Part shown: positions 2,033-42,206 of the stretch, piece after piece
Numbering within the stretch: position 1 is the first letter of the stretch
How the letters are laid out: each line of letters opens with the position of its first letter
Source: a virus
Strand: one strand, 5' to 3'
DNA length: 64,000 nt
IMG/VR virus record: IMGVR_UViG_3300021495_000002
Span: 1 to 64,000 of that record
Made by a program: the position numbers and the translations under genes
Notes under the pieces: model-generated
What the model was told of the DNA's origin: nothing
Database searches by the model: none
What the model saw: the letters and a program-made list of their open reading frames with translations, nothing else

Positions 2033-2033
2033 T

Positions 2034-3170: not shown

Positions 3171-3171
3171 T

Positions 3172-3825: not shown

Positions 3826-3942
3826 TTTTCCTCTCCTTATATTGTTCAGGAATAGTGGTCCAGTATAGACTATAACAATAAGGACAATACAACAATCCCA
3901 ATTTCAGTCTTTTCAAATTCGTATTATTACAAACCGGGCACT

Positions 3943-4800: not shown

Positions 4801-4946
4801 TTCAGAGATATTGTCTTGTCTGTGATTACAGTACGAGCATCCACTATTGTGACGTCGCCTTTAGTTGAGATGTACACATCTCCGTTTCTAAAGACTGTGA
4901 CTCGAACACCATACATCTCAATTGTCTGACCTTCCATTGGCTTCAT
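4797..4946 (-). CDS. Small hypothetical protein (49 aa)
   Basis: Own translation MKPMEGQTIEMYGVRVTVFRNGDVYISTKGDVTIVDARTVITDKTISLK. Its stop overlaps the ATG of the AEP gene (ATGA). Below the ORF-track size cutoff. Confidence 0.4.
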   Translation of the reverse strand: MKPMEGQTIEMYGVRVTVFRNGDVYISTKGDVTIVDARTVITDKTISLK

Positions 4947-6267: not shown

Positions 6268-6269
6268 CT

Positions 6270-6662
6270 CTACCTATACATAGGATTGTCAGAAGAGATA
6301 GTATTTGTATTTGAATTTACATCGGGATATGATGCACCTTGAAGGGAGAGCAGGTCCTCCTCACTCAACTCCTCAAATAATTCTGCAATAAGCTCCTCCA
6401 AAAACAAATCTATTGCGTCATCTAAGTCTTCTTTCTTTATGTCCTTAGCCAGTTCCTCAAGGCACATGACCAGCGCTGCTCGTAGTATAGCTGGATTGTC
6501 TTCCCTTTCCTTCAGCTTTAGAAGTATATCCTCTTTCAGTTTCTTAGCTGATTGTTTACCTTTCTTAGAACTAATGACTGTGCCTATCGCAGCACTTATC
6601 CTCTCTAAGTTTATCTTCATGCTTCTTGCTCCATCTTTGACAATCGAATTATACAAAACCAT
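6270..6662 (-). CDS. Hypothetical acidic protein
   Basis: 130-aa ORF overlapping the upstream gene end. E/D/L-rich. No motif recognised. Confidence 0.55.
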   Translation of the reverse strand: MVLYNSIVKDGARSMKINLERISAAIGTVISSKKGKQSAKKLKEDILLKLKEREDNPAILRAALVMCLEELAKDIKKEDLDDAIDLFLEELIAELFEELSEEDLLSLQGASYPDVNSNTNTISSDNPMYR

Positions 6663-7413
6663 GATCTTTTTTCAAGGGAAGCTGATGCCATTTACTTTCC
6701 AGCTTCCCCAAATATCTTCTTCTTCGTATTTGTTTATAGAGGGTCTTGGCGTCAGTTTCTACTTTAAAATTAGGAGTACGAAGTTGAAGAACATATTTTG
6801 CATTATAAGCTAAAGTGTCTCCACCCCAAATCCTTCCTTCATCAAATTTATTTGCTTTATCTTGACTCTGATGTGATACCACTACTATAGCTACATTTGT
6901 TTCGTCTAAAATTAACGATAACTGACCAAGGATCCGAGATATGACATCTGCCCTCGCACCAAAGTTCTGTCTCGCGCTACCCATCGCACCTTTGATTGGA
7001 GTAGTGATAGAATCAAGTACCAAGATGTCACATTTATGTTGTTTAATGTATTCTAAGACTGGAAATTTATCAGTGGTAGTAATATTACTCTCGACTTTCC
7101 CTGCCTTGCCCTCTTGTCCTTTAGTGATTAGTTGAATATCTAATCCAAGTACATTAGCTAATGAATAGAGAGAACGACAATTCAATTGAAAGGGCTGACG
7201 AAATCGCTTTTCGAATCTGGGTTGGAGAAACTCACTAAATGCTTTTGGATCTCCGATCTCGGTATTTATAACTACACTATTGTATTGACAAGCTAACTGA
7301 TAAGCCAATAAAGACTTACCAGAATTGGGACCCCCAAAGAGAAATAGCATCTCATTGGGGGTCAATCCGCCATCTACTAATTCATCGGCTACTTTCGAGT
7401 CAAATTTGAACAT
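6649..7413 (-). CDS. RecA/RadA/KaiC-superfamily ATPase (RadB-like)
   Basis: Walker A FGGPNSGKSLLAYQLA and Walker B DILVLDSITT. Size and layout resemble archaeal RadA paralogs. Confidence 0.7.
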   Translation of the reverse strand: MFKFDSKVADELVDGGLTPNEMLFLFGGPNSGKSLLAYQLACQYNSVVINTEIGDPKAFSEFLQPRFEKRFRQPFQLNCRSLYSLANVLGLDIQLITKGQEGKAGKVESNITTTDKFPVLEYIKQHKCDILVLDSITTPIKGAMGSARQNFGARADVISRILGQLSLILDETNVAIVVVSHQSQDKANKFDEGRIWGGDTLAYNAKYVLQLRTPNFKVETDAKTLYKQIRRRRYLGKLESKWHQLPLKKDHGFV

Positions 7414-8296
7414 TTTCTAAAGACTCCAATATGGACAATACAGATACGTTGGGTGGTTTTACGGTGCCACCCTTAGCTTCTGCGTGTCCACCAACTTCAA
7501 TCTCTATATTGGATTTTTCAGCTCCTTCTCTGAGTTTTTGTTCAAGCCACGAAGATAAATCACCCCGTATTGAGAATGAACCTGTCTCTGAATTCTGTAT
7601 CAATACTGTCTCTTGCATGTCCCTTGAGAGTTGAGTCGCTATCCGACCCTCAACCACTATGTCCGATGATATCGTTCCTATCAAAACGTCGTTCCACTCT
7701 ACTAACTCCAACTCTTGTAGAATGGAATTGGTGGTTGTTTTTAGCAACTTCTTTGCTTCTACACATCGAGGATCATTTACAACATCCATCGGACTCTCTG
7801 CTTCCTCGAGGACATCCCAAGCGTCAAATTCTTGTCCTAATCTACACAAGGCGTTTACGCCAGACGATAACAGATGATACAATCTGAGATGAAAAGGCTC
7901 GTGTTTCCAGCCATAGAATTTTGTGTGTCTCGCTTTCAACATGGGACAAGTATCCCACACTTCTGGAGGAATTGAATAAGGTTCCATATCTCCAACCGCT
8001 CCAACTGCAGTAATCCACCACTTTTCTGTGGGAATCTTGTCCTTGTAATTCTTAAAGACAATCACAGTTGTTGGAGTATCATCGAAAATCAGTTTATATT
8101 TTCTATTCTCTGGATGACCTGGGTGGTGATCGATTACGAGTCCCTTGAACGAGGGACTCGGGTGCATATCAAGGACAACAGTTGAACCTTTCGCTACGTC
8201 TCCAAAATTACGAATCTCTACCTCAGTATCTCCACTTGCTAAAGAATAAAGATAGGCAGAGGCGAGACCATCCGCGTCATGGTGAGTGGAAATCAT
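7400..8296 (-). CDS. DHH-family phosphoesterase (RecJ/GAN/Cdc45-like)
   Basis: THHDADGLASAYLY (DHH motifs I-II), VVLDMHP and VIDHHPGHP (DHH motif III). Confidence 0.75.
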   Translation of the reverse strand: MISTHHDADGLASAYLYSLASGDTEVEIRNFGDVAKGSTVVLDMHPSPSFKGLVIDHHPGHPENRKYKLIFDDTPTTVIVFKNYKDKIPTEKWWITAVGAVGDMEPYSIPPEVWDTCPMLKARHTKFYGWKHEPFHLRLYHLLSSGVNALCRLGQEFDAWDVLEEAESPMDVVNDPRCVEAKKLLKTTTNSILQELELVEWNDVLIGTISSDIVVEGRIATQLSRDMQETVLIQNSETGSFSIRGDLSSWLEQKLREGAEKSNIEIEVGGHAEAKGGTVKPPNVSVLSILESLENVQI

Positions 8297-16831: not shown

Positions 16832-18070
16832 TTATTCTTCTCTTCCTCTTCCCCCATCGTAAAACACTACTCTTCCAAACGGAAGTTTCTGATGTCTGTC
16901 TCTAAGACTGTCCGGAACCAGCCAAATCACTGGAAAATTTGGCACGCTATTTGGAGACGTGCCATACGTGTCCGTAATGTATATCAAGCCCCTAAGCTCT
17001 GGATATTTTTCAATTTCTTTAAAGACTGGTCTGAAGTCCGTGCCCCCTCCTCCTTTCCACTCAATCTCATCGAGTTCTTCGGGACTGTGTATCCAGTGTT
17101 TTACCTGAACCTTAGCATCACATTGAAGCAGTAATACATTCAGGTCCCCCTTGAAATATGAGAACAGGAACTGCATACCTGCCTTGAATTCAGAAAGTAG
17201 TTCAGTATCTATTGAGCCACTTGTATCAATGGCTACACATATCTGAAGTCTGTTCCTTCCTTTGATTTGGGGATATAGCAACGGCGGATATCGCCTTTTG
17301 TGTAATCTTTTCCAATTCCGTTTACTATAACTTCTTTCAAGTACAAAAGAAGATATAATTTCACTGATTGGAAGAGGAGGATGAAGTATGTTTAACACTT
17401 CTCTTTTTAAAGAGGCTGGTAACGTACCCTGCATGAAAGAACGTAGAAGGGACTGTCTTATCGTCCGTCCTAATGCGTCATTCTCCTTGCTGTGTTTCCA
17501 TATTTTGTGACCTTGAAGACGCTTTTTCCCTTCAGTATTTTTGCCCCTGCTATTTTCTTCCCCTTGTCCACTTTTAGGTTCTGATTGTCCTCCACTTGCA
17601 GACTGTCCACACTGGGATTGTTCTCCAATACCTTGAAAATTCTTCATGAGTTCTCTATACACTTGCTCAAACGTCTTGCTTGTATATTTTTCATCGAATA
17701 GAAAAGAAGACGGCAAATATCCAAACTCCTCTTTAATTATAGCGTTGGTAACATAATCCGCTGCCATATTTGCTATTTCCCATTCTACGTCATTGGTTGC
17801 AATCCTTAGTCTTAAATCCCATATATGAGATAGAAGTATGTGAAGATACTCATGGGCTAAGTCAAATGTGAGATCACTTGGAGAAATTCTATCAAGATAA
17901 TCTTCGTTCAAGTAGAAGGTCTTTCCATCAGTGGCTGCTACTTCAATTGGCACTCCTTTAAATTCTTTGCCTATCTCCACTGGCACGGTGAGCACTCCAG
18001 ACCAAAATGGCTTCTTCTGTAAGAACATGAATTTTGCTCGTCTTATCTTCTTGAGACGGTTTTCGTTCAT
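16832..18070 (-). CDS. Predicted metallopeptidase (DUF2201-like) fused to a von Willebrand A domain
   Basis: HExxH (DLAHEYLHILLSH) in the N-terminal half. MIDAS motif ICVAIDTSGSID in the C-terminal half. G/S/Q-rich linker between the halves. Confidence 0.75.
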   Translation of the reverse strand: MNENRLKKIRRAKFMFLQKKPFWSGVLTVPVEIGKEFKGVPIEVAATDGKTFYLNEDYLDRISPSDLTFDLAHEYLHILLSHIWDLRLRIATNDVEWEIANMAADYVTNAIIKEEFGYLPSSFLFDEKYTSKTFEQVYRELMKNFQGIGEQSQCGQSASGGQSEPKSGQGEENSRGKNTEGKKRLQGHKIWKHSKENDALGRTIRQSLLRSFMQGTLPASLKREVLNILHPPLPISEIISSFVLERSYSKRNWKRLHKRRYPPLLYPQIKGRNRLQICVAIDTSGSIDTELLSEFKAGMQFLFSYFKGDLNVLLLQCDAKVQVKHWIHSPEELDEIEWKGGGGTDFRPVFKEIEKYPELRGLIYITDTYGTSPNSVPNFPVIWLVPDSLRDRHQKLPFGRVVFYDGGRGREE

Positions 18071-18597: not shown

Positions 18598-18810
18598 TCA
18601 CGCTATTTCTTCTTCTTCTTCTTCTTCTTCTTCTTCTTCTTCTTCTTCAGTATTTTCACATTCTGTTTTCCCGTCCATGTCCATAAGCAGAGTTCCTGTG
18701 ACTATAAGCATCATGCCAAGAGCAAGAGGAAATTCTGTATCAAAGTACTGAATTGATAGAACAATTCCCCAAGCCAATAAGGCTCTACCCATACACTGAA
18801 AGAATGTCAT
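18598..18810 (-). CDS. Small two-TM membrane protein with a poly-Glu tail
   Basis: 70 aa with two hydrophobic helices followed by ENT(E)14IA. 4-nt overlap with the MoxR gene. Confidence 0.55.
   Translation of the reverse strand: MTFFQCMGRALLAWGIVLSIQYFDTEFPLALGMMLIVTGTLLMDMDGKTECENTEEEEEEEEEEEEEEIA
18607..18648 (-). repeat. (GAA)14 trinucleotide microsatellite, seen as (TTC)14 on the plus strand
   Basis: Perfect 42-nt ttc repeat read directly from the sequence. Encodes the 14-Glu run. Confidence 0.95.
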
Positions 18811-19874
18811 TCTCCACTCAGTAATGGTAGTATTTCTCTGCCTATGTTCTTCATCAATTCTCTAAAGTTTTCATCACTGAGCATCTTTGAGAACATTTCA
18901 CTCGGCATTGCATTCTTATAGTCTACGAGGAACGCCGCTGCTCCTTCCACGAATCCTCCGTATGCTGGATCACTACCCTTTTCCCAAACGGCTCGTACGT
19001 ATTTGAAATATGCCTTCGAGTAGCTCATTTGCTTCTTCGAATTCTTCTCTCTACTTATCACGGAAAGAAGAGTTTGTATTGTATAGGTCAGGACGTCAAA
19101 TTCACTCGGTATATCACTGACGTCTCCTTTCAATATCTTTTGAATGTCTGGAAGTTTATCTCTTAAATCTGTGAAGGCTAAGAACTTGGCTGCTACTGAA
19201 CCTCCGATCGAACCAGAGAGATCTTCGATGCTTGACAGTCCTTGTTCTAAGAGAAGAGATACTCGTTCCCATCCTCTTCCACAAGTCACTTTCTCTCCCC
19301 TGTGCTCTGGTAGTATGTAAAGGTCTTCGGGATGAGCACTCAAGTAGGCTATAATCTCTGGAGCGATGTGATTTTTCAATGCCCACGCTTTCCACACTTG
19401 TATGTCGGGCTCTACGTAGATCTCATGAAGACGTGCTTCGAGTGGTATCTCAAGATCCCCAACGACTGCTCCATGTTCTCTCTTGTTCCCCGTTCCACAT
19501 GGGACTATCCCATCTGGTAGTGGTGTATCCCCGATCATTCTGTCATAGAATACACGGTACAGTGCTTTCTGCATTTCATTGGAAGCATGATTCAATTCAT
19601 CGAACAACAAGAATCCTCGTGCGTTGTCTTCATACTTTGCCCACTCTGGTGGTAATTGAAGCACCAATCCAGAACTTGGATCTGGTACTGTCCATCCTTC
19701 CAAGTCTGGAGGCTCAAGAGTCAGCAACGACTTAGAGACACACAATACTCCCATCTCTTGAGCGACTTCCCTTATTATGGAACTCTTCCCTACTCCAGTT
19801 GGACCCCAAAGAATAAAGGGAATTCGCTTTTCGTATAATTTCTTAATCCTTTCTTTAGTTTCTCTTAAGTTCAT
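18807..19874 (-). CDS. MoxR-like AAA+ ATPase
   Basis: Walker A ILWGPTGVGKSSI, Walker B GFLLFDELNHA. Size and single AAA module are typical of MoxR/CbbQ-type ATPases. Paired with the VWA gene downstream. Confidence 0.8.
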   Translation of the reverse strand: MNLRETKERIKKLYEKRIPFILWGPTGVGKSSIIREVAQEMGVLCVSKSLLTLEPPDLEGWTVPDPSSGLVLQLPPEWAKYEDNARGFLLFDELNHASNEMQKALYRVFYDRMIGDTPLPDGIVPCGTGNKREHGAVVGDLEIPLEARLHEIYVEPDIQVWKAWALKNHIAPEIIAYLSAHPEDLYILPEHRGEKVTCGRGWERVSLLLEQGLSSIEDLSGSIGGSVAAKFLAFTDLRDKLPDIQKILKGDVSDIPSEFDVLTYTIQTLLSVISREKNSKKQMSYSKAYFKYVRAVWEKGSDPAYGGFVEGAAAFLVDYKNAMPSEMFSKMLSDENFRELMKNIGREILPLLSGE

Positions 19875-20333: not shown

Positions 20334-21512
20334 TTAAATTATGACATATCGCCTCTTCTTTAATCCCTCTGCGTAGTTATTTAAGGCTTCAAGGATAGTT
20401 GTATTTCTCAAGAATTCTGATCCCTCGTATCCTTTCTCAAGAATCTGAGACAAATCTCGTTTCATTCCTTCTACAATAAAACTTCTTAGAAGGAAGAGTT
20501 GATAATTAAGAATAGCTGGTGCTTCTTCTATTATCCAAGATGAGCAGTAAGCGTCGTAAAGACTCATTGATATCATTTCATTAAAACTCTTTAAAAGATG
20601 ATAATTAATAAACTTTATTATCTTTCCTGCAACAATCTCGAAGTGTTGTGGGAGGCACTCGGTGGAGGAACATGATAAGAATGAAGAATGAACTGGCAGA
20701 CGATAATAAATACGTTCCCGTATCTTGGGATCTCTAATTTTTATACCCTTATTGAGATTAACATAAATTGGAATCGTATGTATGCTTATCTCGCCTAATA
20801 TATCGTGAATATAAATTGGAGGAAAGTCAGAAATTCTTATAGAATCCGTTCTCATACGATATAATTCACCGTCCGATGATTCATAATCAAACTCTTGTGC
20901 CTTTTCCTTCTCTTCAGTATATCGTTCCCTAATCCCCTCCAGTATCCACATCGCCAAATAAGGAGTTGCTGAAATATCACTCTTCGCAAGATAGATGATA
21001 CGATCTACTATATGTCTATTGACAGCCCATTCTGAGTTCGATTCAAACGAAAAGATTTGCAAAAACTCTTGTCTGTACTCATTTAACTGTCTTCTCTTCC
21101 TTCCTCCACGAAAAAAATGAGAATCTATATCCTCTACGATCTCTCTATTTTTCAACAATCGATCATATAATAAATTAGTGAACTTTAATAAATTGATTGG
21201 ATTGGAGAGGTACGCCTCTGCATCTACTACTTTCCATTGGTTCGTTTCTATCTTGGACTCCTTTCCGTTTATATCTTCGATTACGAAATTACAAGTCCTC
21301 GTAAATTGAATCTCTTTCACGAAATATATCTCATCTTCTTTAGGAGGCAGTGAGTGAGGTGATATCGTTTTTCCAAATAGTCCAAGGATATACCACGCGG
21401 GTATATCTTCCCAAAGCTTGGAAACGTTAATTTTCTTCATCGTTATCATCCAGCTCTTCCTCAAGAAATTGAGACTGTTGAAATATAAACTCTTGAGCTT
21501 CCTGCCATTCAT
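20334..21512 (-). CDS. Hypothetical protein (392 aa)
   Basis: Long ORF with normal composition. The start may instead be MKKINVSKL at ~21440. No motif recognised. Confidence 0.6.
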   Translation of the reverse strand: MNGRKLKSLYFNSLNFLRKSWMITMKKINVSKLWEDIPAWYILGLFGKTISPHSLPPKEDEIYFVKEIQFTRTCNFVIEDINGKESKIETNQWKVVDAEAYLSNPINLLKFTNLLYDRLLKNREIVEDIDSHFFRGGRKRRQLNEYRQEFLQIFSFESNSEWAVNRHIVDRIIYLAKSDISATPYLAMWILEGIRERYTEEKEKAQEFDYESSDGELYRMRTDSIRISDFPPIYIHDILGEISIHTIPIYVNLNKGIKIRDPKIRERIYYRLPVHSSFLSCSSTECLPQHFEIVAGKIIKFINYHLLKSFNEMISMSLYDAYCSSWIIEEAPAILNYQLFLLRSFIVEGMKRDLSQILEKGYEGSEFLRNTTILEALNNYAEGLKKRRYVII

Positions 21513-21538: not shown

Positions 21539-21883
21539 TTAATCATATTTTCTAATTATGGACTTAATCTGATACGAAACTTCTGCAAGACTGTCGAACT
21601 TGCCCCACCAGTATCTTTCGTCTTCACTCTCTGTGGCACAGTCCTCTGCCCAATCTCTTTCCCCTTTTATGCACACTAATAAGTTTTTCAGTTCTTCGAT
21701 GATATCTTTTGACATTTCAGATCTAAGTTGTTCATAAGTTCGATTAGGTAGATTTGAACGAAAAAGACTAAGTAATTTTGTTGTATCTTCAGTTATTTCA
21801 TCATCACTTGGAAAATCTGAAGGAGTCAATTCAATTTTTAGAGGATGGCTCGATCTGGCTCCGTGAATTTTTATTGTTTTCAT
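21539..21883 (-). CDS. Hypothetical protein
   Basis: 114-aa ORF abutting the Ntn-hydrolase gene. Confidence 0.55.
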   Translation of the reverse strand: MKTIKIHGARSSHPLKIELTPSDFPSDDEITEDTTKLLSLFRSNLPNRTYEQLRSEMSKDIIEELKNLLVCIKGERDWAEDCATESEDERYWWGKFDSLAEVSYQIKSIIRKYD

Positions 21884-21884
21884 T

Positions 21885-22772
21885 TTATATGTACCCGTAT
21901 AGTTTGGCTAAAATTATAGACTTGTTTCCAGATTTATCTGTACTCTTGATTATCCGTTCCTCTCCATCTTCTTCGAAAACGAAAGCCCCACCTCGTGAAG
22001 TTACGTAATCATAGGCTTCTTGTTTGTCCTTGAAGGATAATTTTTTGACTACATCGAGAAACTGTTCCCCTCTGAAATAAGTGCCCTCAACTCTACCATC
22101 CTCTTTTCTATCCTCATTTTCTTTTCTCTTGTAGTCTTTTACTTCGTATTTTCCCTTACCTACTTTCACTATTTTTCCTCTTTTCCCCCAACCTGTATCT
22201 TGGTTATAGAGGCTACGCCAGTCCCATTTCCATGTGAGATCCGTAAATCTCCGTTTTCCATCTACTCGGAAATTGCCAATCAAGATAGGATCTTTTCTTC
22301 GTTCCAACAAAAGCACAAACTTTGATCCTCCGAGCATCTCTTGGAACTCCTTTGATAGCATCATTAGAATTAACTGCCTCTCTGTTAGTCGAAGAGAAGA
22401 CAAAAACAAGGTAAATTTCGCTGTATCACTAAGTTCATCGTAACTATTCCATGATGAAAACGCTGACATGTGTCCCCTGTGGAATAATATGGCTCTCCTC
22501 TTTCCTTTCAGTGTGACTACGAACGGGTGAGTTAGTTTCGGTTTGACCTCCCCAGCACTCGCCATCCTCCAGTGTGACACCACCGGATACTTTCCTTGTA
22601 CCTCATCAAGAACTTGATATGCACCATCTGGATCCATCAAGCCTTTCATTACGTTCCACTTGTTTCCTTTGAAATACGCAAACCCGAACCCATCAGGGTT
22701 CTGGTTCCATATCTTCTCGAACTCGTCGTACTCCACTTTCCCTCCTTCTTTAATTACGGCTATTTGGCACAT
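21885..22772 (-). CDS. Class-II glutamine amidotransferase-like Ntn hydrolase
   Basis: N-terminal nucleophile MCQIAV. SHWRMASAGEVKPKLTHPF and ILFHRGHM mirror the H-R-x-A-[ST]-x-G...HPF / HNG blocks of class-II GATases. Confidence 0.6.
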   Translation of the reverse strand: MCQIAVIKEGGKVEYDEFEKIWNQNPDGFGFAYFKGNKWNVMKGLMDPDGAYQVLDEVQGKYPVVSHWRMASAGEVKPKLTHPFVVTLKGKRRAILFHRGHMSAFSSWNSYDELSDTAKFTLFLSSLRLTERQLILMMLSKEFQEMLGGSKFVLLLERRKDPILIGNFRVDGKRRFTDLTWKWDWRSLYNQDTGWGKRGKIVKVGKGKYEVKDYKRKENEDRKEDGRVEGTYFRGEQFLDVVKKLSFKDKQEAYDYVTSRGGAFVFEEDGEERIIKSTDKSGNKSIILAKLYGYI

Positions 22773-22773
22773 C

Positions 22774-23115
22774 CTATTTTTCCCTCCTTTTTCTAAATAA
22801 ACACTCTATTGCTCGTCTCAATCGTTCAGGATCTTTTCGAATCATTTTTTGTCTGAAGGTATACGGTAAACCAACAATTATAGTTCTACCGTCCATGAAT
22901 CTGTTTAAACTCTCAGAATTTATGATCCTCAAGTCACAGTCGATTAGATTTTTTTTCACGATATTATAGCTCTTCGGATCCCCAACGTATACTCTATCGC
23001 CGTGGAAATATGATACTCCGAAGACTACTATTCTCTCGATCCCTGGAATATTTACTTCAGCATCAATCTCTTCTCGTGGGAGATGGTCATCATATCGATT
23101 ACATACTACTTTCAT
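22774..23115 (-). CDS. Small protein, tandem paralog A
   Basis: Start taken at MKVVCNRY (23115), directly after the stop of paralog B. C terminus IIVGLPYTFRQKMIRKDPERLRRAIECLF parallels paralog B. Confidence 0.55.
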   Translation of the reverse strand: MKVVCNRYDDHLPREEIDAEVNIPGIERIVVFGVSYFHGDRVYVGDPKSYNIVKKNLIDCDLRIINSESLNRFMDGRTIIVGLPYTFRQKMIRKDPERLRRAIECLFRKRREK

Positions 23116-23420
23116 TGAAACAAACACCTCAGAACTTTTTTCAAAACTTCTGGATTGCCTTTGATATACTGCAATCTAAATAAATGTGGTAATCCAATAC
23201 CTATTATACCTTCTTCCTTTTCTCCTCGAAAATCCACTTTGATTATCTTTGCATCAGTTGTATTTCTTCTGATGTGATCTGCCCACTCGCTCGAAATGAG
23301 GATCTCATCTCCGTAACTACCGAATACCTCGATTCGTTTAACGTTTTCTAATCCCTTTATTTGCATTTGGAACTCTTTTTTAGGCAAGCCCTCAAAATCT
23401 CCGATATACGTTACTTTCAT
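23112..23420 (-). CDS. Small protein, tandem paralog B
   Basis: 102 aa. IIGIGLPHLFRLQYIKGNPEVLKKVLRCLF. Confidence 0.55.
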   Translation of the reverse strand: MKVTYIGDFEGLPKKEFQMQIKGLENVKRIEVFGSYGDEILISSEWADHIRRNTTDAKIIKVDFRGEKEEGIIGIGLPHLFRLQYIKGNPEVLKKVLRCLFQ

Positions 23421-24139
23421 AACTTTCTAACTAATCTTCTTTGAATGTCCTCGAATTTAAAAGGATCTTTTATGAATTTCTTTATGAACAGCGTTACCAC
23501 GAGTAATTGGCGATACGTGGTTATCTTAGGCAATCTGAATTCAACCGTACCGAGACCATTAGTCATTGTATTAACGAAGAAATATCGTTCATTGGGTTCA
23601 TCTTGATTTGCGAACTCATTCGGATTTCTACCCCACAGGCGTCTGTCTGTCACAACGTCTTCGAGATACCCCTGTGCTCTTTCGATTCTTTGCAATTCAT
23701 CAGAAGATACTCCTACATGAATATGCGATGATACAAGATAAGTCTTTAGATAATCTGAGTAATCTTTATATATTGGTCTGAGTGACTGAACAAAAGAACG
23801 CCTTGACAAATAAATTGGAGATTTCATTTCACAATCACTCACGGTTGCATCCTCAGTGGGGAGGAATCCTCTTAATAACAGTCTTGCAAATATCGCAGTT
23901 CGAATATGTTTGTCTTCTTGATCTGGAGATCGAAACTCGAGTTCGGTGCCCCACGTATAATCACCGGTATCCCTGGCTTTTCGCGTACCTCTTACTTCCT
24001 CGTTTTTTGTGGGATAAGGATGAGTACTATAGAAATGGTCATCACAAATATACCCTATCCCCTTGACGTACACAGAACATGCTCTCTCTCTTTGACACAA
24101 TCTGCACTTTTTAACATTAAATCCACGGATTCCGATCAT
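23417..24139 (-). CDS. Putative amidoligase (glutamine-synthetase-like, Amidoligase_2-type) with an N-terminal Cys-rich (putative zinc-binding) segment
   Basis: WGTELEF (E-x-E), SSHIHVGV (H-x-H) and GTVEFRLP (E-F-R) blocks in the order expected for the family. CRLCQRERAC...ICDDH at the N terminus. Confidence 0.55.
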   Translation of the reverse strand: MIGIRGFNVKKCRLCQRERACSVYVKGIGYICDDHFYSTHPYPTKNEEVRGTRKARDTGDYTWGTELEFRSPDQEDKHIRTAIFARLLLRGFLPTEDATVSDCEMKSPIYLSRRSFVQSLRPIYKDYSDYLKTYLVSSHIHVGVSSDELQRIERAQGYLEDVVTDRRLWGRNPNEFANQDEPNERYFFVNTMTNGLGTVEFRLPKITTYRQLLVVTLFIKKFIKDPFKFEDIQRRLVRKL

Positions 24140-24372
24140 AGAACTATCTTACCCCTCAGTTCCAATTGGGTTACTGGATCAAAGTGTTCTTCTATTTCGT
24201 ACTTTTCGCTTTTCCTGTACAATTCGTATAATTCTCTAAAATTCTTTCCCGGTTTGTGCAGACCATCTGCGTCTCGAAATAACGTTACCCCGACTCGCCT
24301 AAAATAAATAAAGGTTCCCAGTCTCTGTCCATCTTTTTTCTTTCGTACTATCAACTTTGAGACGTTATGCAT
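24136..24372 (-). CDS. Hypothetical protein
   Basis: 78-aa ORF with a 4-nt overlap to the amidoligase gene. Confidence 0.5.
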   Translation of the reverse strand: MHNVSKLIVRKKKDGQRLGTFIYFRRVGVTLFRDADGLHKPGKNFRELYELYRKSEKYEIEEHFDPVTQLELRGKIVL

Positions 24373-36725: not shown

Positions 36726-37721
36726 ATGAAAACTCCTCTTTCCTCTATTTTTAATTTTGGAGCAATTCCCTCTCCTTGGGATAAAAGGGACGTTATATAC
36801 GCGGCTCTTACTTCAAAAGAGAAGCCGGAGGCATTTAGTCTTAAGGAATACCAAGGACCGGTAGTAGACCAGGGTTCTCGACAGATATGCGTTCCTTGTG
36901 CGTTGTGTGCAATTGCAGAGTCAAAACAATTTTACAATACTAATTTGTCTGAATGTTACATTTACAAGCGTCGTTCCCATAAGGGAGATGGCATGGTGCT
37001 GAGGAACGCTCTCAAAATTATGCAAAAGGAAGGCACTTGTCAAGAAATGTGTTTTCCGTTGTCTACGTGTCAAGAACGATGCAGTGAAAGCTCAATTAAA
37101 AAGAACGCCCTATCTTATAGGATAGGAGAATACCATAGAGTATTCAATGATATTACCGGTACGATGTATATTCATAAGCTACCAGTATTTGCAGCCGTTC
37201 CTGTGTATGATAATTGGTCCTATGATGCTCGTATACCAATGCCCTCTGGTGAATTCTTAGGTTTTCACGCTATTACGATTGTAGGATATAACCTCACAGA
37301 GAAATATTATGAATTCAAAAATTCCTGGGGAACAGAATGGGGGAATGGGGGATACGGGGTGTTGCCTTTAAACTATCCGATAGCTGAAGCATGGATAGTT
37401 GAGCCGAGACTTGGGAATGATTACGATGATTTGCTTCCTGATGACATAACAATTAAAAATACAATATGTGGCATGTCCATATTTGGGCTTGGTATCGAAC
37501 TCGAGATTACTGTTCCTTGGGACTGTATTGTAAGACCCAACTTCGGAATATTCCGATTTCCACGTATGCTTCATAAAGGCACGAATTCAGTGATGTTTAG
37601 ATTTCCATTTAAGAAAGGTTCACAGCCACTAAGTTTAACCTTTAAGCATAAGAATTCTTATATTAGAATGTCTGCTACTCTTTCTAATACCATTCAATTG
37701 AGTGAGTGGGAAAGAATTTGA
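36726..37721 (+). CDS. Papain-family (C1) cysteine peptidase with a C-terminal beta-rich extension
   Basis: DQGSRQICVPCALCA (Gln/Cys block), GFHAITIVGYN (His block) and KNSWGTEWGNGGYG (Asn-Ser-Trp block), in papain order. Confidence 0.8.
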   Translation: MKTPLSSIFNFGAIPSPWDKRDVIYAALTSKEKPEAFSLKEYQGPVVDQGSRQICVPCALCAIAESKQFYNTNLSECYIYKRRSHKGDGMVLRNALKIMQKEGTCQEMCFPLSTCQERCSESSIKKNALSYRIGEYHRVFNDITGTMYIHKLPVFAAVPVYDNWSYDARIPMPSGEFLGFHAITIVGYNLTEKYYEFKNSWGTEWGNGGYGVLPLNYPIAEAWIVEPRLGNDYDDLLPDDITIKNTICGMSIFGLGIELEITVPWDCIVRPNFGIFRFPRMLHKGTNSVMFRFPFKKGSQPLSLTFKHKNSYIRMSATLSNTIQLSEWERI

Positions 37722-37727
37722 ATTAGA

Positions 37728-40142
37728 ATGAGCTTACGAGTAACATTTCTCGGAGTAAATGCAGAAGCAAAGGGACATTCCTGTATATTAGTTGAGTCAT
37801 CCAAAGCGAGAATCCTCTTAGAGCCCACTCAGCGAGTTAGGGACGTTGATGCTGTTATAATCACGGATATAGACAGAGATGAATATAGCGAATGGAAATA
37901 TTATGCAGACCAAGGAATTCCTATATATTCGGTAGCAGCAATAAAGAGATGGGCAGAAGATGATGAACTTCGAGAGTCCATTCAAGTGATAAGCAACAAG
38001 TTCTCAATTAAGGGTCTCCACATGAATTGGCTAAAAGCTAACGTTGCTCCTCACGAACCAGCAGGCGGAGTTAGAATTCCAAGTTATGATGTAGATATAG
38101 TGCCTGAACTTCCAGCTTATATTCCTCAAGCTTTAATAAAGGCATTTGGATTGCCACCGTCCAATATTATAGTTGGCATTGGTTCTTATAAGAAATCAGA
38201 CCATAAAATATCGTTTGAGGATTTTCTTCTTCAGCTTGAGAAGACTCGAAGTGGTAAGGAAAAAGGTCTTTTATCTATTACCCTTACAAACTTCAGGAAG
38301 GATTTAAAAGAACATAAAAGTGAAGTTCTCAGAAGACTTAAAGAACGATGGGATATTCCCATCTTTTGGGCAGAAAAGGGCATGACGCTGGAATTTGCAA
38401 TAGATGGAGAAGTGATAAGAACAGATACCCTTCCTAAAGAAGACGAAAAGCTTCACTTCAAAGAATTCCTTTCCAAAGGAGTTGATTATGACATAAAGCA
38501 CGTCAAGACAAGATGGAAAGAGTGTATAGCAGATTTGCGATATTTGGCTAACAACGCCGTACCTCGCTTGAAAGCAGGAAAGAAGTGGGGTAAGTGGACT
38601 CTTGATGCGTGCTATAAATATTTTGCCGCTTTGATAGATGCTCTTCGTAGTGTGTATTTTGCACTCGTTCCCCCTACTCAACCTGAGCTATACAAAATAG
38701 AACATCCTAATAAAGATCCTAAAGAAGCACTTAAGACTTCTTTCTGGCAGACATACTTGAAGGCTAAGAAATACATGAAGTCCAAACCTCCCAAAGATGA
38801 GGAGGAATTAAAAGAGTGGAATAAGAAGCGAGCAAAAATAATAAGTGCATCTGAGGAAACGAAGAGCCTTAAAGTCGGATACCTTTCCAAGGCTAAACCA
38901 TATTTACGATTCTTCCTTCCTACTATTCATGAGGATATTGCGAGTGCTGGATGGGACGAAAAGAAGCTCCTTATCGATGTTAAAGCTGATGGTCTCAGAA
39001 TTACTCTTTGGAAGTCAGGCGGTAAAGGGTACGTGTTTGTGGATCCAGAAGAACTCAAACACAAGTCCCCATTAATAAACAAATATATTCCTCAGATAGT
39101 GAAAGAGATTGAAGAACGCTTCCCTGATAACACAGCTCTTGATGGGGAACTTTATGCAGCAAAAGGCAATGAAGCTTTACATAGAACCGTCATAAATGGA
39201 ATTATAAATACTAAGCTTCCTCCCGAAAGATTCATACCTTATGCGTACGCATTTGTATTCGATGTCCTTATTTATAAAGGGAATGATGTCCGAGATAAAC
39301 CTCTCGAAGAAAGGTTAAAACTGCTTCAGACTTTTAAGTCTACCGCACACATCAAAATAGAAAGAGTAAGCAAAGTTGCAATACCAAGCTATTCTGGATA
39401 CATAGTAGACGGGAATAACAAGAGTGCGATAGATAAAGCCATTCATTTGATAAAAACTTCAAAACACAGTCTCCATAAGGGATTGCAAGAGGGCGTCATG
39501 ATTAAAACTTTAGATCATTTCTATGAAGTTCCTACAAATAAAGGGGCAGCCAAATGTAAGTTTTGGCACGAAGTTGACACTGTGGTACTGGATAAGAAGT
39601 TGGTAAAAGGACAAACCGATGTGTGGAATTATTATCTGGGTATCGAAATACCAGCCGGATATGCTAAGATGATGCTTGATGACACTCAGGCGTATAAACG
39701 TGTTCGATGTTTGTATAATGGTCATCTTTATAAGAAGAAAGAGTGTCAAGATTATTTAGACAGACGAGGTACTCGATTCTTTATGGAATACGGAAAGTCG
39801 GATAACACAAAAATTAAGTGTGATGTTGGAGACGTTCTTAGAGTGTCCTCAGAAGAAGTCCTCTATAATGCAAATGAAACTCATCCAGAATACCCGTATT
39901 ATACAGGATACATAAATAGGGCGATGGAACCAGTACCAGAAAGAAAGACTTCTGATAATTTAGTCGTGTTGCATCGTCTTGCTTTACTTGAACCTCAACG
40001 GATACCCTTGGAAGTCTTAGCGAAATGGAAAGAAAGTATGCCTTCAGAGATAAAGAAGTATTGTGAATATATTAGGTCTTTACCCACTTCAAGACTAATT
40101 CAATTTTATAATGCACTGAAGAAGGTTCAAAATGAAGAGTGA
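37728..40142 (+). CDS. lig: ATP-dependent DNA ligase with a ~400-aa N-terminal extension
   Basis: Adenylation motif I DVKADGLRITLW (Lys at ~38982), motif III ALDGELYA, IIIa AFVFDVLIY, IV EGVMIKT and V KCKFWHEVDTVVL. Confidence 0.85.
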   Translation: MSLRVTFLGVNAEAKGHSCILVESSKARILLEPTQRVRDVDAVIITDIDRDEYSEWKYYADQGIPIYSVAAIKRWAEDDELRESIQVISNKFSIKGLHMNWLKANVAPHEPAGGVRIPSYDVDIVPELPAYIPQALIKAFGLPPSNIIVGIGSYKKSDHKISFEDFLLQLEKTRSGKEKGLLSITLTNFRKDLKEHKSEVLRRLKERWDIPIFWAEKGMTLEFAIDGEVIRTDTLPKEDEKLHFKEFLSKGVDYDIKHVKTRWKECIADLRYLANNAVPRLKAGKKWGKWTLDACYKYFAALIDALRSVYFALVPPTQPELYKIEHPNKDPKEALKTSFWQTYLKAKKYMKSKPPKDEEELKEWNKKRAKIISASEETKSLKVGYLSKAKPYLRFFLPTIHEDIASAGWDEKKLLIDVKADGLRITLWKSGGKGYVFVDPEELKHKSPLINKYIPQIVKEIEERFPDNTALDGELYAAKGNEALHRTVINGIINTKLPPERFIPYAYAFVFDVLIYKGNDVRDKPLEERLKLLQTFKSTAHIKIERVSKVAIPSYSGYIVDGNNKSAIDKAIHLIKTSKHSLHKGLQEGVMIKTLDHFYEVPTNKGAAKCKFWHEVDTVVLDKKLVKGQTDVWNYYLGIEIPAGYAKMMLDDTQAYKRVRCLYNGHLYKKKECQDYLDRRGTRFFMEYGKSDNTKIKCDVGDVLRVSSEEVLYNANETHPEYPYYTGYINRAMEPVPERKTSDNLVVLHRLALLEPQRIPLEVLAKWKESMPSEIKKYCEYIRSLPTSRLIQFYNALKKVQNEE

Positions 40143-42177: not shown

Positions 42178-42206
42178 TTTTAGTTTAATACTCTTATTTC
42201 AGTAAC

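What the first reader, a model, noticed from the sequence alone, without database searches (positions are those of the whole stretch)
21885..24139. Amidoligase plus class-II-GATase-like Ntn hydrolase bracketing two duplicated small genes: predicted ligation/modification cassette
23417-24139 shows the E-x-E (WGTELEF), H-x-H (SSHIHVGV) and E-F-R (GTVEFRLP) blocks of the glutamine-synthetase-like Amidoligase_2 family, behind a Cys-rich, possibly zinc-binding N-terminal segment.

21885-22772 begins MCQIAV and carries HWRMASAG...HPF and FHRGH blocks typical of class-II amidotransferase/Ntn hydrolases.

From memory, the amidoligase family was defined partly by its conserved neighbourhood with amidotransferase-like peptidases. 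It was predicted to make peptide tags or modified metabolites.

Here the two enzymes flank a tandem pair of ~100-aa paralogs (22774-23115 and 23112-23420; shared ...G[LI]P[YH].FR....K..PE.L.....CLF). These could be substrates, carriers or specificity factors. Neither the product nor the target (protein, nucleotide, cell-wall precursor, DNA base) is evident.
Basis: partly seen in the sequence, partly recalled or inferred. Interest (0 to 1): 0.7.

Follow-up and report, generated by a model that had tools for sequence, protein, structure and literature searches.

The report
Viral amidoligase–amidohydrolase operon with accessory pair
An archaeal-virus operon pairs an ATP-dependent amide-bond ligase with a glutamine-amidotransferase-like hydrolase, a partnership long predicted in phages but never characterised, and adds two copies of an undescribed small protein that accompanies the same enzyme pair in unrelated uncultured viruses.

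Summary
On the minus strand, six tightly packed genes (24372-21539) include a Zn-ribbon + Amidoligase_2-type ligase, two paralogous ~100-aa genes and a Cys1 class-II-GATase-like Ntn hydrolase.

The ligase misses Pfam's cut-off on its own (16.4 vs 22 bits). A profile search links it to 196 relatives, and 26 of 50 sampled family members hit PF12224. The ExE, HxH and ExR residues are invariant or nearly so. The hydrolase passes Pfam's cut-off, and its family profile hits solved class-II GATases (E 2e-9). Cys2, Arg69 and Asp116 are invariant, but the canonical oxyanion Asn is Arg in this clade.

The window is a relative of head-tailed viruses of ANME-1 archaea (Methanophagales virus GBV301).

The main new point concerns the small genes. 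They belong to an undescribed alpha/beta family (GLPxxFR...CLF, no Pfam hit). It also sits directly after the same ligase-hydrolase pair in 13 unrelated metagenome loci (profile-profile 97%, E 1e-11).

The ligase-hydrolase pairing is a known but biochemically uncharacterised prediction (Iyer et al. 2009). I favour gamma-glutamyl-type amide formation and removal on an unknown target, with the small proteins as non-catalytic accessory subunits. This is a new variant of a known kind, of moderate interest.

The parts
24136..24372 (-). 78-aa conserved upstream ORF, first gene of the coupled block; function unknown
   Evidence: Stop overlaps the ligase start (ATGA) and it is preceded by GGAGGTGA. 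A 77-78-aa orthologue (82 aa in L003, where the gene is cut by the contig end) lies directly upstream of the ligase in the ANME-virus loci where that region is present. dN/dS is 0.06-0.11. It has no family hit and is absent from the distant L008-type loci.
23417..24139 (-). ATP-dependent carboxylate-amine ligase: N-terminal CxxC...CxxH zinc ribbon plus divergent Amidoligase_2 (glutamine-synthetase/GCS2-like) domain
   Evidence: Direct PF12224 score is 16.4 bits, below the cut-off of 22. A profile search finds 196 relatives, and 26 of 50 sampled family members hit PF12224, best 7e-8. E66, E68, E104, H139, E200, R202 and C32 are invariant. The AF2 model has pLDDT 72. The two most probable Foldseek PDB matches (0.96) are the GCS2 ligase YbdK (1r8g) and its Salmonella homologue (1tt4); by E-value they rank 5 and 2 among aspartate-kinase regulatory-domain hits of lower probability.
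23112..23420 (-). Small protein A (102 aa), GLPxxFR...CLF alpha/beta family; dispensable paralogue
   Evidence: Paralogue of B. A-type orthologues are present in all ANME-virus loci except L001 and L002. dN/dS is 0.24.
22774..23115 (-). Small protein B (113 aa), GLPxxFR...CLF alpha/beta family; the copy kept in every locus
   Evidence: The AF2 model has pLDDT 84.5. It shows weak similarity to about half of the PghP/YndL/FGase amidohydrolase fold and has no conserved metal ligands. It is homologous to proteins that follow the ligase-hydrolase pair in unrelated loci (hhalign 97.4%, E 1.3e-11). It has no Pfam, NCBIfam, PHROG or PADLOC match below E 0.001; the only hits are chance-level ones to PHROG 35800 (E 0.009, unknown function) and NCBIfam PRK14971 (E 0.059).
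21885..22772 (-). Cys1 Ntn hydrolase of the class-II glutamine-amidotransferase fold (residues ~1-180), followed by an aromatic-rich linker and a clade-specific C-terminal domain (~200-295)
   Evidence: GATase_4 scores 30.1 bits against a cut-off of 23. The family profile hits PDB class-II GATases: 3mdn 1.9e-9, plant amidophosphoribosyltransferase (PurF-type, 6lbp) 1.4e-7, GlmS 4e-7. C2, R69, H82-P83, G100 and D116 are invariant. The canonical Asn before G100 is Arg in the ANME-virus clade only.
21539..21883 (-). 114-aa conserved downstream ORF (only the N-terminal ~70 aa are conserved across the clade); function unknown
   Evidence: It starts 1 nt after the hydrolase stop. Orthologues of 68-119 aa follow the hydrolase in all ANME-virus loci. 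It has no family hit.
20334..21512 (-). 392-aa syntenic neighbour; whether it belongs to the system is uncertain
   Evidence: It is conserved (340-392 aa) downstream of the cassette in ANME-virus loci. It has no Pfam, PHROG, PADLOC or PDB match.

Best explanation
This is a translationally coupled early/'enzymatic-arm' operon of a head-tailed virus of ANME-1 (Methanophagales) archaea. It encodes a small amide-bond modification machine.

Supported by evidence here:
- A zinc-ribbon Amidoligase_2-type ligase with intact metal/ATP-binding residues.
- A Cys1 Ntn hydrolase of the class-II GATase fold that keeps the residues binding the alpha-carboxylate and alpha-amino group of a glutamyl moiety.
- Two paralogous non-catalytic alpha/beta proteins of an undescribed family that co-occurs with this enzyme pair in unrelated viruses.

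Inferred mechanism, to which I commit:
1. Like the characterised glutamine-synthetase-fold ligases (GS, gamma-glutamylcysteine ligase, PuuA, PafA), the ligase activates a glutamate gamma-carboxylate as an acyl phosphate and joins it to an amine on an unidentified host or viral molecule.
2. The Ntn hydrolase attacks gamma-glutamyl amide bonds through a Cys1 thioester. It trims or removes that linkage, as EgtC does after EgtA.
3. The small proteins bind the enzymes and/or the target through the conserved pocket formed by G33, N56, G82-L83-P84 and R88. They act as specificity or scaffold subunits, with copy B essential and copy A auxiliary.

The target and the biological purpose (host takeover, superinfection exclusion or cofactor remodelling) are unknown.
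For: Ligase:
- eight close sequences with invariant ExE, HxH and ExR motifs and CCCH.
- 196 profile hits.
- catalytic residues are invariant in 50 sequences, and 26 of 50 match PF12224.
- the two most probable structural matches (0.96) are the GCS2 ligase YbdK and its homologue 1tt4.

Hydrolase:
- GATase_4 above cut-off.
- C2, R69 and D116 are invariant, and the profile hits solved class-II GATases at E 2e-9 to 1e-4.

Operon:
- ATGA overlaps or 1-nt gaps join six genes.
- all five genes tested are under purifying selection.
- the ligase, two small genes and the hydrolase keep the same order in 10 ANME-virus loci down to 52% ligase identity.

Accessory family:
- confident alpha/beta model.
- conserved GLPxxFR...CLF motif, with no conserved His, Asp or Glu triad.
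- homologues lie directly after the ligase-hydrolase pair in 13 unrelated loci (hhalign 97.4%, E 1.3e-11).
- those loci include a second tandem paralogue pair in L008 and L014.
- copy A is lost in L001 and L002.

Gamma-glutamyl chemistry:
- EgtA makes a gamma-glutamyl compound and the GATase-fold EgtC removes the glutamate.
- a phage carries amidoligase, GATase, a glutathione-synthase-like enzyme and gamma-glutamylcyclotransferase together.
- From my own knowledge: the characterised GS-fold ligases I know of (GS, gamma-glutamylcysteine ligase, PuuA, PafA) activate a Glu gamma-carboxylate, and Pfam describes PF12224 neighbourhoods with GATase-like thiol peptidases or AIG2 cyclotransferases.
Against: - No substrate, product or target is identified by any test here.
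- The ligase's own Pfam score is sub-threshold, and its structural matches are weak (E 4e-3 to 1.4e-2, TM 0.34-0.39).
- The hydrolase's oxyanion Asn is replaced by Arg in this clade, so its activity may be altered or lost.
- Sequence cannot separate 'hydrolyses gamma-glutamyl-X' from 'hydrolyses glutamine to supply ammonia'. Strict adjacency and translational coupling are also what a two-subunit amidotransferase would show.
- The small proteins' resemblance to glutamate-specific amidohydrolases is weak (E about 0.01-0.03, TM about 0.45).
- Physical interaction among the four proteins is untested.
- Many ligase-hydrolase loci lack the small proteins, so they are not required for the core chemistry.
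Confidence: 0.42

Rival explanations
1. Two-subunit glutamine-dependent amidotransferase. The Ntn subunit hydrolyses free glutamine, and the ammonia is passed to the ligase, which converts an ATP-activated carboxylate on a metabolite, cofactor, envelope component or protein Glu/Asp into a carboxamide. MurT/GatD and asparagine synthetase work this way. The small proteins present the substrate.
For: - The hydrolase keeps Cys1, Arg69 and Asp116, the free-glutamine binding set.
- The ligase and hydrolase genes are always adjacent and in the same order, and are translationally coupled, as expected for stoichiometric subunits.
- The best PDB sequence matches of the hydrolase family are true glutaminase domains (PurF-type amidophosphoribosyltransferase, GlmS) rather than EgtC (E 0.26).
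Against: - Some loci carry unequal numbers of the two genes: 5 ligases to 3 hydrolases in L039, and runs of ligases in L036-L043.
- The oxyanion Asn, nearly universal in working glutaminase domains (own knowledge), is Arg in this clade.
- No characterised GS-fold ligase that I know of takes ammonia from an Ntn partner.
- Co-occurrence with gamma-glutamylcyclotransferase in another phage fits gamma-glutamyl turnover better.
Confidence: 0.25
2. Protein tagging or carrier system. The small proteins, or the 78-aa protein, are the substrates. The ligase attaches an amino acid or peptide to them, or ligates them to targets, and the hydrolase processes or removes the adduct. Pup/PafA/Dop and LysW/LysX are the analogues.
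For: - PafA and Dop belong to the same ligase superfamily (own knowledge).
- The small genes sit between the two enzymes and are co-inherited with them.
- The gut-metagenome versions carry a conserved acidic C-terminal tail ending in (L/M)-x-A.
- The last conserved motif (CLF) is followed by tails of variable length, as in ubiquitin-like precursors.
Against: - There is no conserved C-terminal Gly, Glu or Gln, and no conserved Lys or acidic acceptor across the family. The only polar residues conserved across clades are N56 and R88.
- The proteins are compact folded alpha/beta domains with a pocket-like cluster of conserved residues, not disordered tags.
- One copy is dispensable, and many ligase-hydrolase loci have none.
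Confidence: 0.12
3. Step in a viral DNA base hypermodification pathway, for example adding or amidating an amino-acid side chain on a modified pyrimidine or 7-deazapurine.
For: - Lee et al. 2021 report amidoligase and amidotransferase domains co-associated with thymidine-hypermodification genes in viral contigs (PMC8989533).
- The cassette lies in the enzymatic arm alongside two DNA methylases and nucleases.
- ANME-1 viruses are reported to carry QueCDEF genes.
Against: - No 5-hmdU kinase, aGPT-Pplase, hydroxymethylase, TET/JBP, DpdA or Que families were found among 41 left-arm proteins scanned at E<=1e-3.
- Ekchuahviruses encode ThyX, which makes ordinary dTMP.
- The distant loci show the ligase-hydrolase(-GLP) module without such genes in the flanks examined.
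- About 10-20 kb of the genome lies outside the window and was not seen.
Confidence: 0.1
4. Auxiliary metabolic genes that boost host glutamine, glutamate or nitrogen metabolism, as proposed for other phages.
For: Published annotations treat amidoligase and GATase as auxiliary metabolic genes.
Against: - The proteins are highly divergent from cellular enzymes, and a scan of 185,579 species genomes found no real homologue of the close clade.
- There is no equivalog in NCBIfam.
- A zinc ribbon, virus-specific accessory proteins and arrays of paralogous ligases point to a specific target rather than bulk metabolism.
Confidence: 0.05

Closest known systems
Phage Amidoligase_2 (PF12224) plus class-II GATase-like gene pairs predicted by Iyer, Abhiman, Burroughs & Aravind 2009 (Mol Biosyst 5:1636). 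Examples: LUZ24-like Pseudomonas phages, phiEco32, mycobacteriophage Marvin, OM43 phages, a Poseidoniales virus, crAss-like cr108_1.
   Same: The same two enzyme families sit side by side in the early/enzymatic region of tailed viruses. They are uncharacterised and are proposed to make peptide-like modifications or metabolites.
   Different: - This subfamily is so divergent that Pfam and PHROGs miss the ligase.
- It carries an N-terminal zinc ribbon.
- It has no counterpart among 50,697 deposited phage genomes apart from partial hits in phi14:2 and cr108_1.
- It is not accompanied by the ATP-grasp or COOH-NH2_lig genes of the LUZ24/crAss clusters.
- It is accompanied by the GLPxxFR accessory family.
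- Its hydrolase has HRG instead of HNG.
- I could not read the 2009 paper, so I cannot exclude that it noted the small family.
EgtA / EgtC of mycobacterial ergothioneine biosynthesis
   Same: A glutamate-activating ligase and a stand-alone GATase-fold Cys1 amidohydrolase act in one pathway to add and later remove a gamma-glutamyl group.
   Different: EgtC is only a marginal sequence match (E 0.26). The Egt operon has no zinc ribbon and no accessory small proteins, and its other pathway enzymes (EgtB, EgtD, EgtE) are absent here.
Pup ligase PafA / deamidase Dop with the tag Pup
   Same: A GS/GCS2-fold ligase acts together with a deamidating or cleaving partner and small proteins encoded alongside (own knowledge).
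   Different: Dop is a PafA paralogue, not an Ntn hydrolase. Pup is disordered and has a conserved C-terminal GGQ/E, whereas the small proteins here are folded and lack any conserved terminus.
MurT/GatD and other two-subunit glutamine amidotransferases
   Same: Adjacent genes encode an ATP-dependent ligase-type subunit and a separate glutaminase subunit (PMC3267633 abstract).
   Different: MurT is a Mur-ligase-fold protein and GatD is a class-I (triad) GATase. Here the ligase has the GS-like fold and the hydrolase is a class-II Ntn enzyme.
PghP / YndL phage-type poly-gamma-glutamate hydrolases and N-formylglutamate amidohydrolases (compared with the small proteins)
   Same: These are the top structural neighbours of small protein B in both PDB and BFVD (probability 0.94-0.97). 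All of them recognise glutamyl amides.
   Different: The match covers only about half of the ~200-aa fold (TM 0.43-0.46 on the query, 0.24-0.29 on the target) with E about 0.01-0.03. No His/Glu/His zinc ligands are conserved. The small proteins are therefore not members of these families; at most they are degenerate relatives.

Membership tests
Amidoligase_2 (PF12224), glutamine-synthetase/GCS2-like carboxylate-amine ligases | The protein itself scores above Pfam's gathering threshold | tested here: not met
   16.4 bits against 22, E 0.0088, covering only residues 176-207. Only 3 of the 8 close sequences (the window protein plus seven relatives) give any hit at E<=1.
Amidoligase_2 (PF12224), glutamine-synthetase/GCS2-like carboxylate-amine ligases | Transitive homology through intermediate sequences | tested here: met
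   A profile of the close clade finds 196 proteins at E<=1e-3 and 57 at E<=1e-10, aligned over nearly the full length. Of 50 aligned family members, 26 match PF12224, best E 7.3e-8. A relative in Cellulophaga phage phi14:2 is annotated 'amidoligase enzyme'.
Amidoligase_2 (PF12224), glutamine-synthetase/GCS2-like carboxylate-amine ligases | Conserved metal/ATP-binding motifs ExE, H(xH) and ExR | tested here: met
   E66, E68, E104, H139, E200 and R202 are invariant and H141 is >=90% conserved across 50 sequences of 20-91% identity.
Amidoligase_2 (PF12224), glutamine-synthetase/GCS2-like carboxylate-amine ligases | GS/GCS2-like fold | tested here: inconclusive
   The AF2 model has pLDDT 72.2. The two most probable Foldseek PDB matches are the GCS2 ligase YbdK (1r8g) and its Salmonella homologue 1tt4, at probability 0.96, but with E 4e-3 to 1.4e-2 and TM 0.34-0.39. 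By E-value they rank 2 and 5 among aspartate-kinase regulatory-domain hits of lower probability. No PDB sequence hit.
Amidoligase_2 (PF12224), glutamine-synthetase/GCS2-like carboxylate-amine ligases | Conserved neighbourhood with a GATase-like Cys hydrolase | tested here: met
   A hydrolase gene beginning with MC immediately follows the ligase in 23 of 29 metagenome loci and in L008, L010, L011, L012 and L014. It lies two genes downstream in all ANME-virus loci.
Amidoligase_2 (PF12224), glutamine-synthetase/GCS2-like carboxylate-amine ligases | ATP-dependent amide-bond formation | not testable with these tools
   Needs an enzyme assay.
Class-II (Ntn) glutamine amidotransferase-fold hydrolases | Profile match above the curated threshold | tested here: met
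   GATase_4 scores 30.1 bits against 23, E 3e-7. The family profile hits 3mdn at 1.9e-9, plant amidophosphoribosyltransferase (PurF-type, 6lbp) at 1.4e-7 and GlmS at 4e-7.
Class-II (Ntn) glutamine amidotransferase-fold hydrolases | Catalytic Cys directly after the initiator Met | tested here: met
   M1-C2 is invariant in 15 of 15 hydrolases from all clades.
Class-II (Ntn) glutamine amidotransferase-fold hydrolases | Arg and Asp that bind the glutamyl alpha-carboxylate and alpha-amino groups (PurF R73 and D127, from my own knowledge) | tested here: met
   H67-x-R69 and (S/T)-D116-(T/S) are invariant and align with the HxR motif of 1te5 and 3mdn.
Class-II (Ntn) glutamine amidotransferase-fold hydrolases | Oxyanion-hole Asn-Gly (PurF N101-G102, from my own knowledge) | tested here: not met
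   The Gly is invariant. The Asn is Arg99 (FHRGH) in all ANME-virus orthologues, while all 12 distant family members have (M/H)-N-G. The fold assignment stands, but catalytic equivalence is uncertain.
Ubiquitin-like / Pup-like protein tags (small proteins A and B) | Conserved C-terminal Gly-Gly, Gln or Glu used for ligation | tested here: not met
   C-termini differ in sequence and length after the last conserved motif: LFQ, LFRKRREK, LFEE, LFRI, and a 21-aa acidic tail in gut-type homologues.
PghP/FGase-type zinc amidohydrolases (small proteins A and B) | Full ~200-aa fold with conserved His/Glu/His metal ligands | tested here: not met
   Only partial fold similarity (TM 0.43-0.46 on the query, E about 0.01-0.03). 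The invariant residues are P13, G33, N56, G82, L83, P84, F87, R88, I92, L99, L106 and F107, with no His, Asp or Glu triad.
Thymidine hypermodification clusters (5-HMUDK plus aGPT-Pplase, Lee et al. 2021) | Presence of a base-activating kinase/pyrophosphorylase, hydroxymethylase or TET/JBP gene near the amidoligase | tested here: not met
   None of these families appears among 41 left-arm proteins scanned against Pfam at E<=1e-3. The part of the genome outside the window was not examined.

The most novel reading that the evidence does not exclude
The GLPxxFR...CLF proteins may not be passive adaptors. They could be dedicated protein carriers or substrates on which the viral ligase builds a gamma-glutamyl or peptide adduct that the Ntn hydrolase edits. 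That would be a virus-encoded, Pup- or LysW-like protein-modification system operating in archaeal and bacterial viruses, with duplicated carriers giving two specificities.

A related unexcluded variant: in ANME-1 hosts the module rewrites the gamma-glutamyl tails of methanogenic cofactors (F420, methanofuran, methanopterin derivatives) to redirect host energy metabolism.
Probability: 0.12. Interest if true: 0.8.

Novelty: new variant of a known kind. Interest (0 to 1): 0.45.

Why it matters
The amidoligase-GATase pairing has been annotated in many phage genomes since 2009 and is variously called an auxiliary metabolic gene pair, a superinfection-exclusion device or a DNA-modification step. 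I found no report of its product or target.

This locus, together with the 13 unrelated loci that share its accessory family, defines a compact module of three or four proteins: ligase, hydrolase, and one or two small GLPxxFR proteins. That module is small enough to reconstitute in E. coli. The small proteins give a handle for pull-downs to find the target.

The finding also extends the system to viruses of the methane-oxidising ANME-1 archaea, whose published annotation does not mention it. It flags a clade-specific Asn-to-Arg change in the hydrolase active site that may mark a change of chemistry.

Tried and rejected
- **Deposited phage genomes.** DNA and protein searches of the cassette, the ligase and their distant relatives found nothing useful except partial hits in crAss-like cr108_1 and Cellulophaga phage phi14:2.
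- **Ligase against PDB.** Sequence profiles of the ligase gave no real hit, only chance zinc-ribbon matches.
- **Fused accessory domain.** I suspected that the N-terminal extension of the longer ligase P0011 ('GLGLPAYRL') was a fused copy of the small-protein domain. hhalign rejected this (probability 0.45%), and no GLPxxFR-like motif occurs in any of 149 family ligases.
- **Hydrolase C-terminal domain versus the small proteins.** Not related (hhalign probability 0.4%).
- **Second L008 paralogue.** The 177-aa protein does not match the ANME profile directly. Its membership rests on its similarity to the 181-aa paralogue and on a weak HMM hit in L014.
- **Defence-system models.** PADLOC gave nothing for the cassette.
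- **The 392-aa neighbour.** No Pfam, PHROG or PDB match.
- **Cellular genomes.** A scan of 185,579 species genomes found only a spurious 23-residue match, so no provirus or cellular homologue of the close clade was found.
- **IMG/VR scans.** Scans with the distant-family alignment returned only the ANME-virus contigs, and two alignments were too divergent to search with.
- **Iyer et al. 2009.** The paper could not be read.

Full report
**1. What is in the sequence.**
The finding lies on the minus strand of the left arm of the window. That arm is transcribed leftward from a strand switch near 27 kb, where the GC skew changes sign. Six ORFs are packed head to tail:
- a 78-aa ORF (24372..24136)
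- the 240-aa ligase (24139..23417)
- small protein A, 102 aa (23420..23112)
- small protein B, 113 aa from the ATG at 23115 (..22774)
- the 295-aa hydrolase (22772..21885)
- a 114-aa ORF (21883..21539)

The first three junctions are 4-nt ATGA overlaps and the last two are 1-nt gaps. This is the signature of translational coupling. The five genes tested have dN/dS of 0.04-0.24 against close relatives, so they are real coding genes.

**2. Where the window comes from.**
- The right arm encodes a terminase, a portal, a capsid protein and a long tape-measure-sized ORF.
- There is no DNA or protein match to 50,697 deposited phage genomes.
- One homologue of small protein B is the deposited protein 'Methanophagales virus GBV301 QIT36_gp053'.
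- The 71.9-kb contig that carries it has the same gene order, from the 77-aa gene through the MoxR-like ATPase to the DUF2201 protein.
- GBV301 and GBV302 are the head-tailed Ekchuahviridae that infect ANME-1 archaea (PMC9894754). Neither that paper nor its held supplements mention an amidoligase or amidotransferase.
- The nearest contig is an 81.8-kb IMG/VR contig with a 96% identical ligase.
- No homologue of the close clade exists in 185,579 species genomes.

The window is therefore from an ekchuahvirus-like archaeal virus.

**3. The ligase.**
Directly, Pfam gives only a sub-threshold hit to Amidoligase_2 (16.4 bits against 22) over the C-terminal EFR motif. PHROGs and NCBIfam give nothing. 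Only seven close homologues exist among 5.8 billion proteins.

A profile of these against 1.84 billion representatives finds 196 proteins at E<=1e-3, aligned over nearly the full length. Of a 50-sequence alignment of this wider family, 26 match PF12224, best E 7e-8.

E66, E68, E104, H139, E200, R202, Q211 and C32 are invariant, and C12, C15 and H141 are at least 90% conserved. These are the ExE, HxH and ExR motifs of the glutamine-synthetase-like ligases.

The AF2 model (pLDDT 72) has as its two most probable PDB neighbours, both at 0.96, the GCS2 carboxylate-amine ligase YbdK (1r8g) and its Salmonella homologue 1tt4. E-values and TM scores are weak, and aspartate-kinase regulatory domains of lower probability rank among them by E-value.

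A CxxC...CxxC/H zinc ribbon directly precedes the catalytic domain in most family members, whether or not they carry extra N-terminal domains.

I conclude that this is a divergent, zinc-ribbon-bearing subfamily of Amidoligase_2. The family assignment is by transitive homology and motif conservation, not by the curated threshold.

**4. The hydrolase.**
- GATase_4 is matched above threshold.
- A profile of 15 Ntn domains from all clades hits solved class-II glutamine amidotransferase domains: 3mdn at 1.9e-9, a plant PurF-type amidophosphoribosyltransferase (6lbp) at 1.4e-7, GlmS at 4e-7, 1te5 at 8e-5 and EgtC at 0.26.
- M1-C2, H67-x-R69, H82-P83, G100 and D116 are invariant.
- From established knowledge of PurF and GlmS, these are the Cys1 nucleophile and the Arg and Asp that hold the alpha-carboxylate and alpha-amino groups of the glutamyl moiety.
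- The exception is the oxyanion Asn. All 12 distant family members have (M/H)-N-G, but every ANME-virus orthologue has H-R-G. I cannot explain this.
- After the Ntn domain, most of the 15 hydrolases examined have a Trp/Tyr-rich stretch: 12 have 5-8 W/Y in their best 25-residue window against 5-8% overall, while L028 and both L039 copies have 4 and L036 has 3.
- The ANME-virus proteins add a conserved ~100-aa C-terminal domain with no match.

**5. The small proteins.**
A and B are paralogues (E 1e-11). A-type and B-type orthologues form separate groups throughout the ANME-virus clade, so the duplication predates that clade. Ten loci keep the order ligase-A-B-hydrolase. Two independent assemblies of a 91%-identical virus (L001 and L002) have lost A and keep only B.

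The invariant residues are P13, G33, N56, G82-L83-P84, F87, R88, I92, L99, L106 and F107. The C-termini vary in sequence and length, which argues against a ubiquitin- or Pup-like tag.

AF2 gives a confident alpha/beta model (pLDDT 84.5). In it the conserved G33, the GLP motif, R88 and N56 lie at or just after the C-terminal ends of strands and at the start of a helix. This is the usual ligand-binding edge of such folds; that reading is my inference.

Among the highest-probability structural neighbours in both PDB and BFVD are the poly-gamma-glutamate hydrolases YndL and PghP; N-formylglutamate-amidohydrolase-type proteins score lower. Only about half of that fold is covered, scores are weak, and no metal ligands are conserved. 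The small proteins are therefore not enzymes of that family.

**6. The small proteins belong to a wider accessory family.**
Word-based homologue searches found them only in ANME-virus contigs, plus three 181-196-aa proteins. I then looked at the neighbourhoods of distant zinc-ribbon ligases.
- The gene after the hydrolase in locus L008 ends in '...IGLPFDFRERHF...LVRALFL'. It matches the A/B profile (hhalign 91.6%, E 8e-7).
- It is followed by a paralogue of itself (E 1e-13). The same four genes recur in L014-L016.
- A metagenome scan with distant ligases returned 29 loci. Local HMM searches show the hydrolase immediately after the ligase in 23 of them; five of the other six contigs end at the ligase or within about 1 kb after it, and one does not reach past the ligase at all.
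- A 159-188-aa GLP-domain protein lies immediately after the hydrolase in 11 of these loci, several from human-gut assemblies and one on a 109.6-kb contig.
- The profile of these 13 proteins matches the ANME-virus A/B profile over 104 columns at 97.4% probability, E 1.3e-11. None hits Pfam.
- The conserved core across all clades is a (Y/F)G strand end, the (I/V)GLPxx(F/Y)R motif and a C-terminal CLF motif.
- Other loci lack the family and instead carry arrays of paralogous ligases and hydrolases, for example five ligases and three hydrolases in 8.7 kb of L039.

So the ligase-hydrolase pair is the core. The GLP protein is a recurrent third component that has been duplicated in two lineages, probably independently, and is placed differently in the operon.

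**7. How it most likely works.**
Supported by the evidence above: an intact ligase active site, an Ntn hydrolase with a glutamyl-binding pocket, tight operon coupling, and a co-inherited non-catalytic partner family.

Inferred:
- The characterised GS-fold ligases I know of (GS, gamma-glutamylcysteine ligase, PuuA, PafA) activate a glutamate gamma-carboxylate as an acyl phosphate.
- GATase-fold Cys1 enzymes cleave gamma-glutamyl amides. The substrate is either glutamine itself or compounds such as the EgtC substrate.

The pair is therefore best read as making and trimming a gamma-glutamyl-type amide on an unknown target, with the small proteins as specificity or scaffold subunits. I put about 0.4 on this.

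The main rival (about 0.25) is a two-subunit glutamine-dependent amidation enzyme. Sequence cannot separate the two. Two things tilt me away from it: the unequal ligase-to-hydrolase ratios in arrays, and the co-occurrence of amidoligase and GATase with gamma-glutamylcyclotransferase in another phage.

Lesser rivals:
- A tag or carrier role for the small proteins (about 0.12) is disfavoured by the lack of any conserved acceptor or terminus.
- A DNA-hypermodification role (about 0.1) has literature support in other contigs. But no base-activating enzyme was found among 41 neighbouring proteins, and ekchuahviruses carry ThyX.
- A bulk-metabolism role (about 0.05) fits poorly with virus-only, highly divergent proteins.

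**8. Comparison with what is known.**
The ligase-hydrolase neighbourhood is the one that, from my recollection, Pfam's PF12224 entry and Iyer et al. 2009 describe. Many phage papers repeat it without experiments. I could not read the 2009 paper.

What appears new:
- the zinc-ribbon subfamily, which is invisible to standard annotation
- its presence in ANME-1 viruses
- the GLPxxFR...CLF accessory family and its recurrent duplication
- the Asn-to-Arg change in the hydrolase

I rate this a new variant of a known kind. Interest is moderate (0.45). A specialist would not be surprised by the enzyme pair. The compact three- or four-protein module does make an old open question, what these phage amidoligase systems do, more tractable.

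Noticed in passing
window 18598-18810 (about 18600-18655): A run of about 16 GAA/TTC triplets. It encodes a poly-Glu tail in a 70-aa minus-strand ORF (poly-Ser or poly-Phe in other frames), between the MoxR-like ATPase gene and small downstream genes.
   Followed up: no
window 18807-19874 and 16832-18070 (minus strand): A MoxR-like AAA+ ATPase (PHROG 1297, E 7e-66) and a DUF2201 metallopeptidase-like/VWA protein (Pfam E 1e-21; PHROG 1314, labelled 'HNH endonuclease' there). Both lie downstream of the cassette and are syntenic in all ANME-virus loci. Whether they work with the cassette is unknown.
   Followed up: partly
window 48249-49187 (plus strand): A radical SAM enzyme with a SPASM domain (a type often used for peptide maturation) sits inside the structural arm.
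   Followed up: no
window 36726-46370 (plus strand): Unusual large proteins in the structural arm: a papain-family protease (331 aa), an 804-aa protein with an ATP-dependent DNA ligase domain, a 681-aa protein with HINT/intein-type domains, and a 1387-aa protein with BNR/sialidase-like and DUF2341 domains.
   Followed up: no
L039 (WNFX01001400.1) 695-8160; also L036, L037, L042, L043: Tandem arrays of paralogous zinc-ribbon amidoligases and Ntn hydrolases, with no GLP-family gene. L039 has five ligases and three hydrolases in 8.7 kb. This suggests multi-step or multi-target chemistry.
   Followed up: partly
L001 5496-5853 and L002 2772-3129: Two independent assemblies of a virus with a 91%-identical ligase have lost small gene A and keep only B. 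The duplicated copy is therefore dispensable.
   Followed up: yes
window 22170-22260 (hydrolase residues ~171-200); same position in the other hydrolases examined: A Trp/Tyr(-Gly)-rich stretch directly after the Ntn domain, for example 'WKWDWRSLY' here and 'YYGGYYGSYYDEHY' in L008. Twelve of 15 hydrolases from distant clades have 5-8 W/Y in their best 25-residue window; L028, both L039 copies and L036 have 3-4. Function unknown.
   Followed up: partly
L025-L035, L049 (GLP-domain proteins, C-terminal ~21 aa): The gut-metagenome versions of the accessory protein carry a conserved acidic tail after the CLF motif, ending in (L/M)-x-A (for example DTEIEEADYEQQDFFENLLVA). The tail is absent from the archaeal-virus versions.
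   Followed up: no
window 21885-22772, residue 99 of the hydrolase: The canonical oxyanion-hole Asn of class-II amidotransferases is Arg in every ANME-virus orthologue but Asn in all 12 distant relatives. Unexplained.
   Followed up: partly
window 1319-2032 and elsewhere in the left arm: The left arm also encodes two N6/N4 DNA methylases, glycosyltransferases (GT1, GT2, Anp1-like), an ERCC4 nuclease, a RadA/KaiC-like ATPase, a PhoU-like protein and an AbiEi-like regulator. The Pfam hits were returned as a summary for 31 ORFs, so apart from the first ORF they are not assigned to individual ORFs.
   Followed up: no
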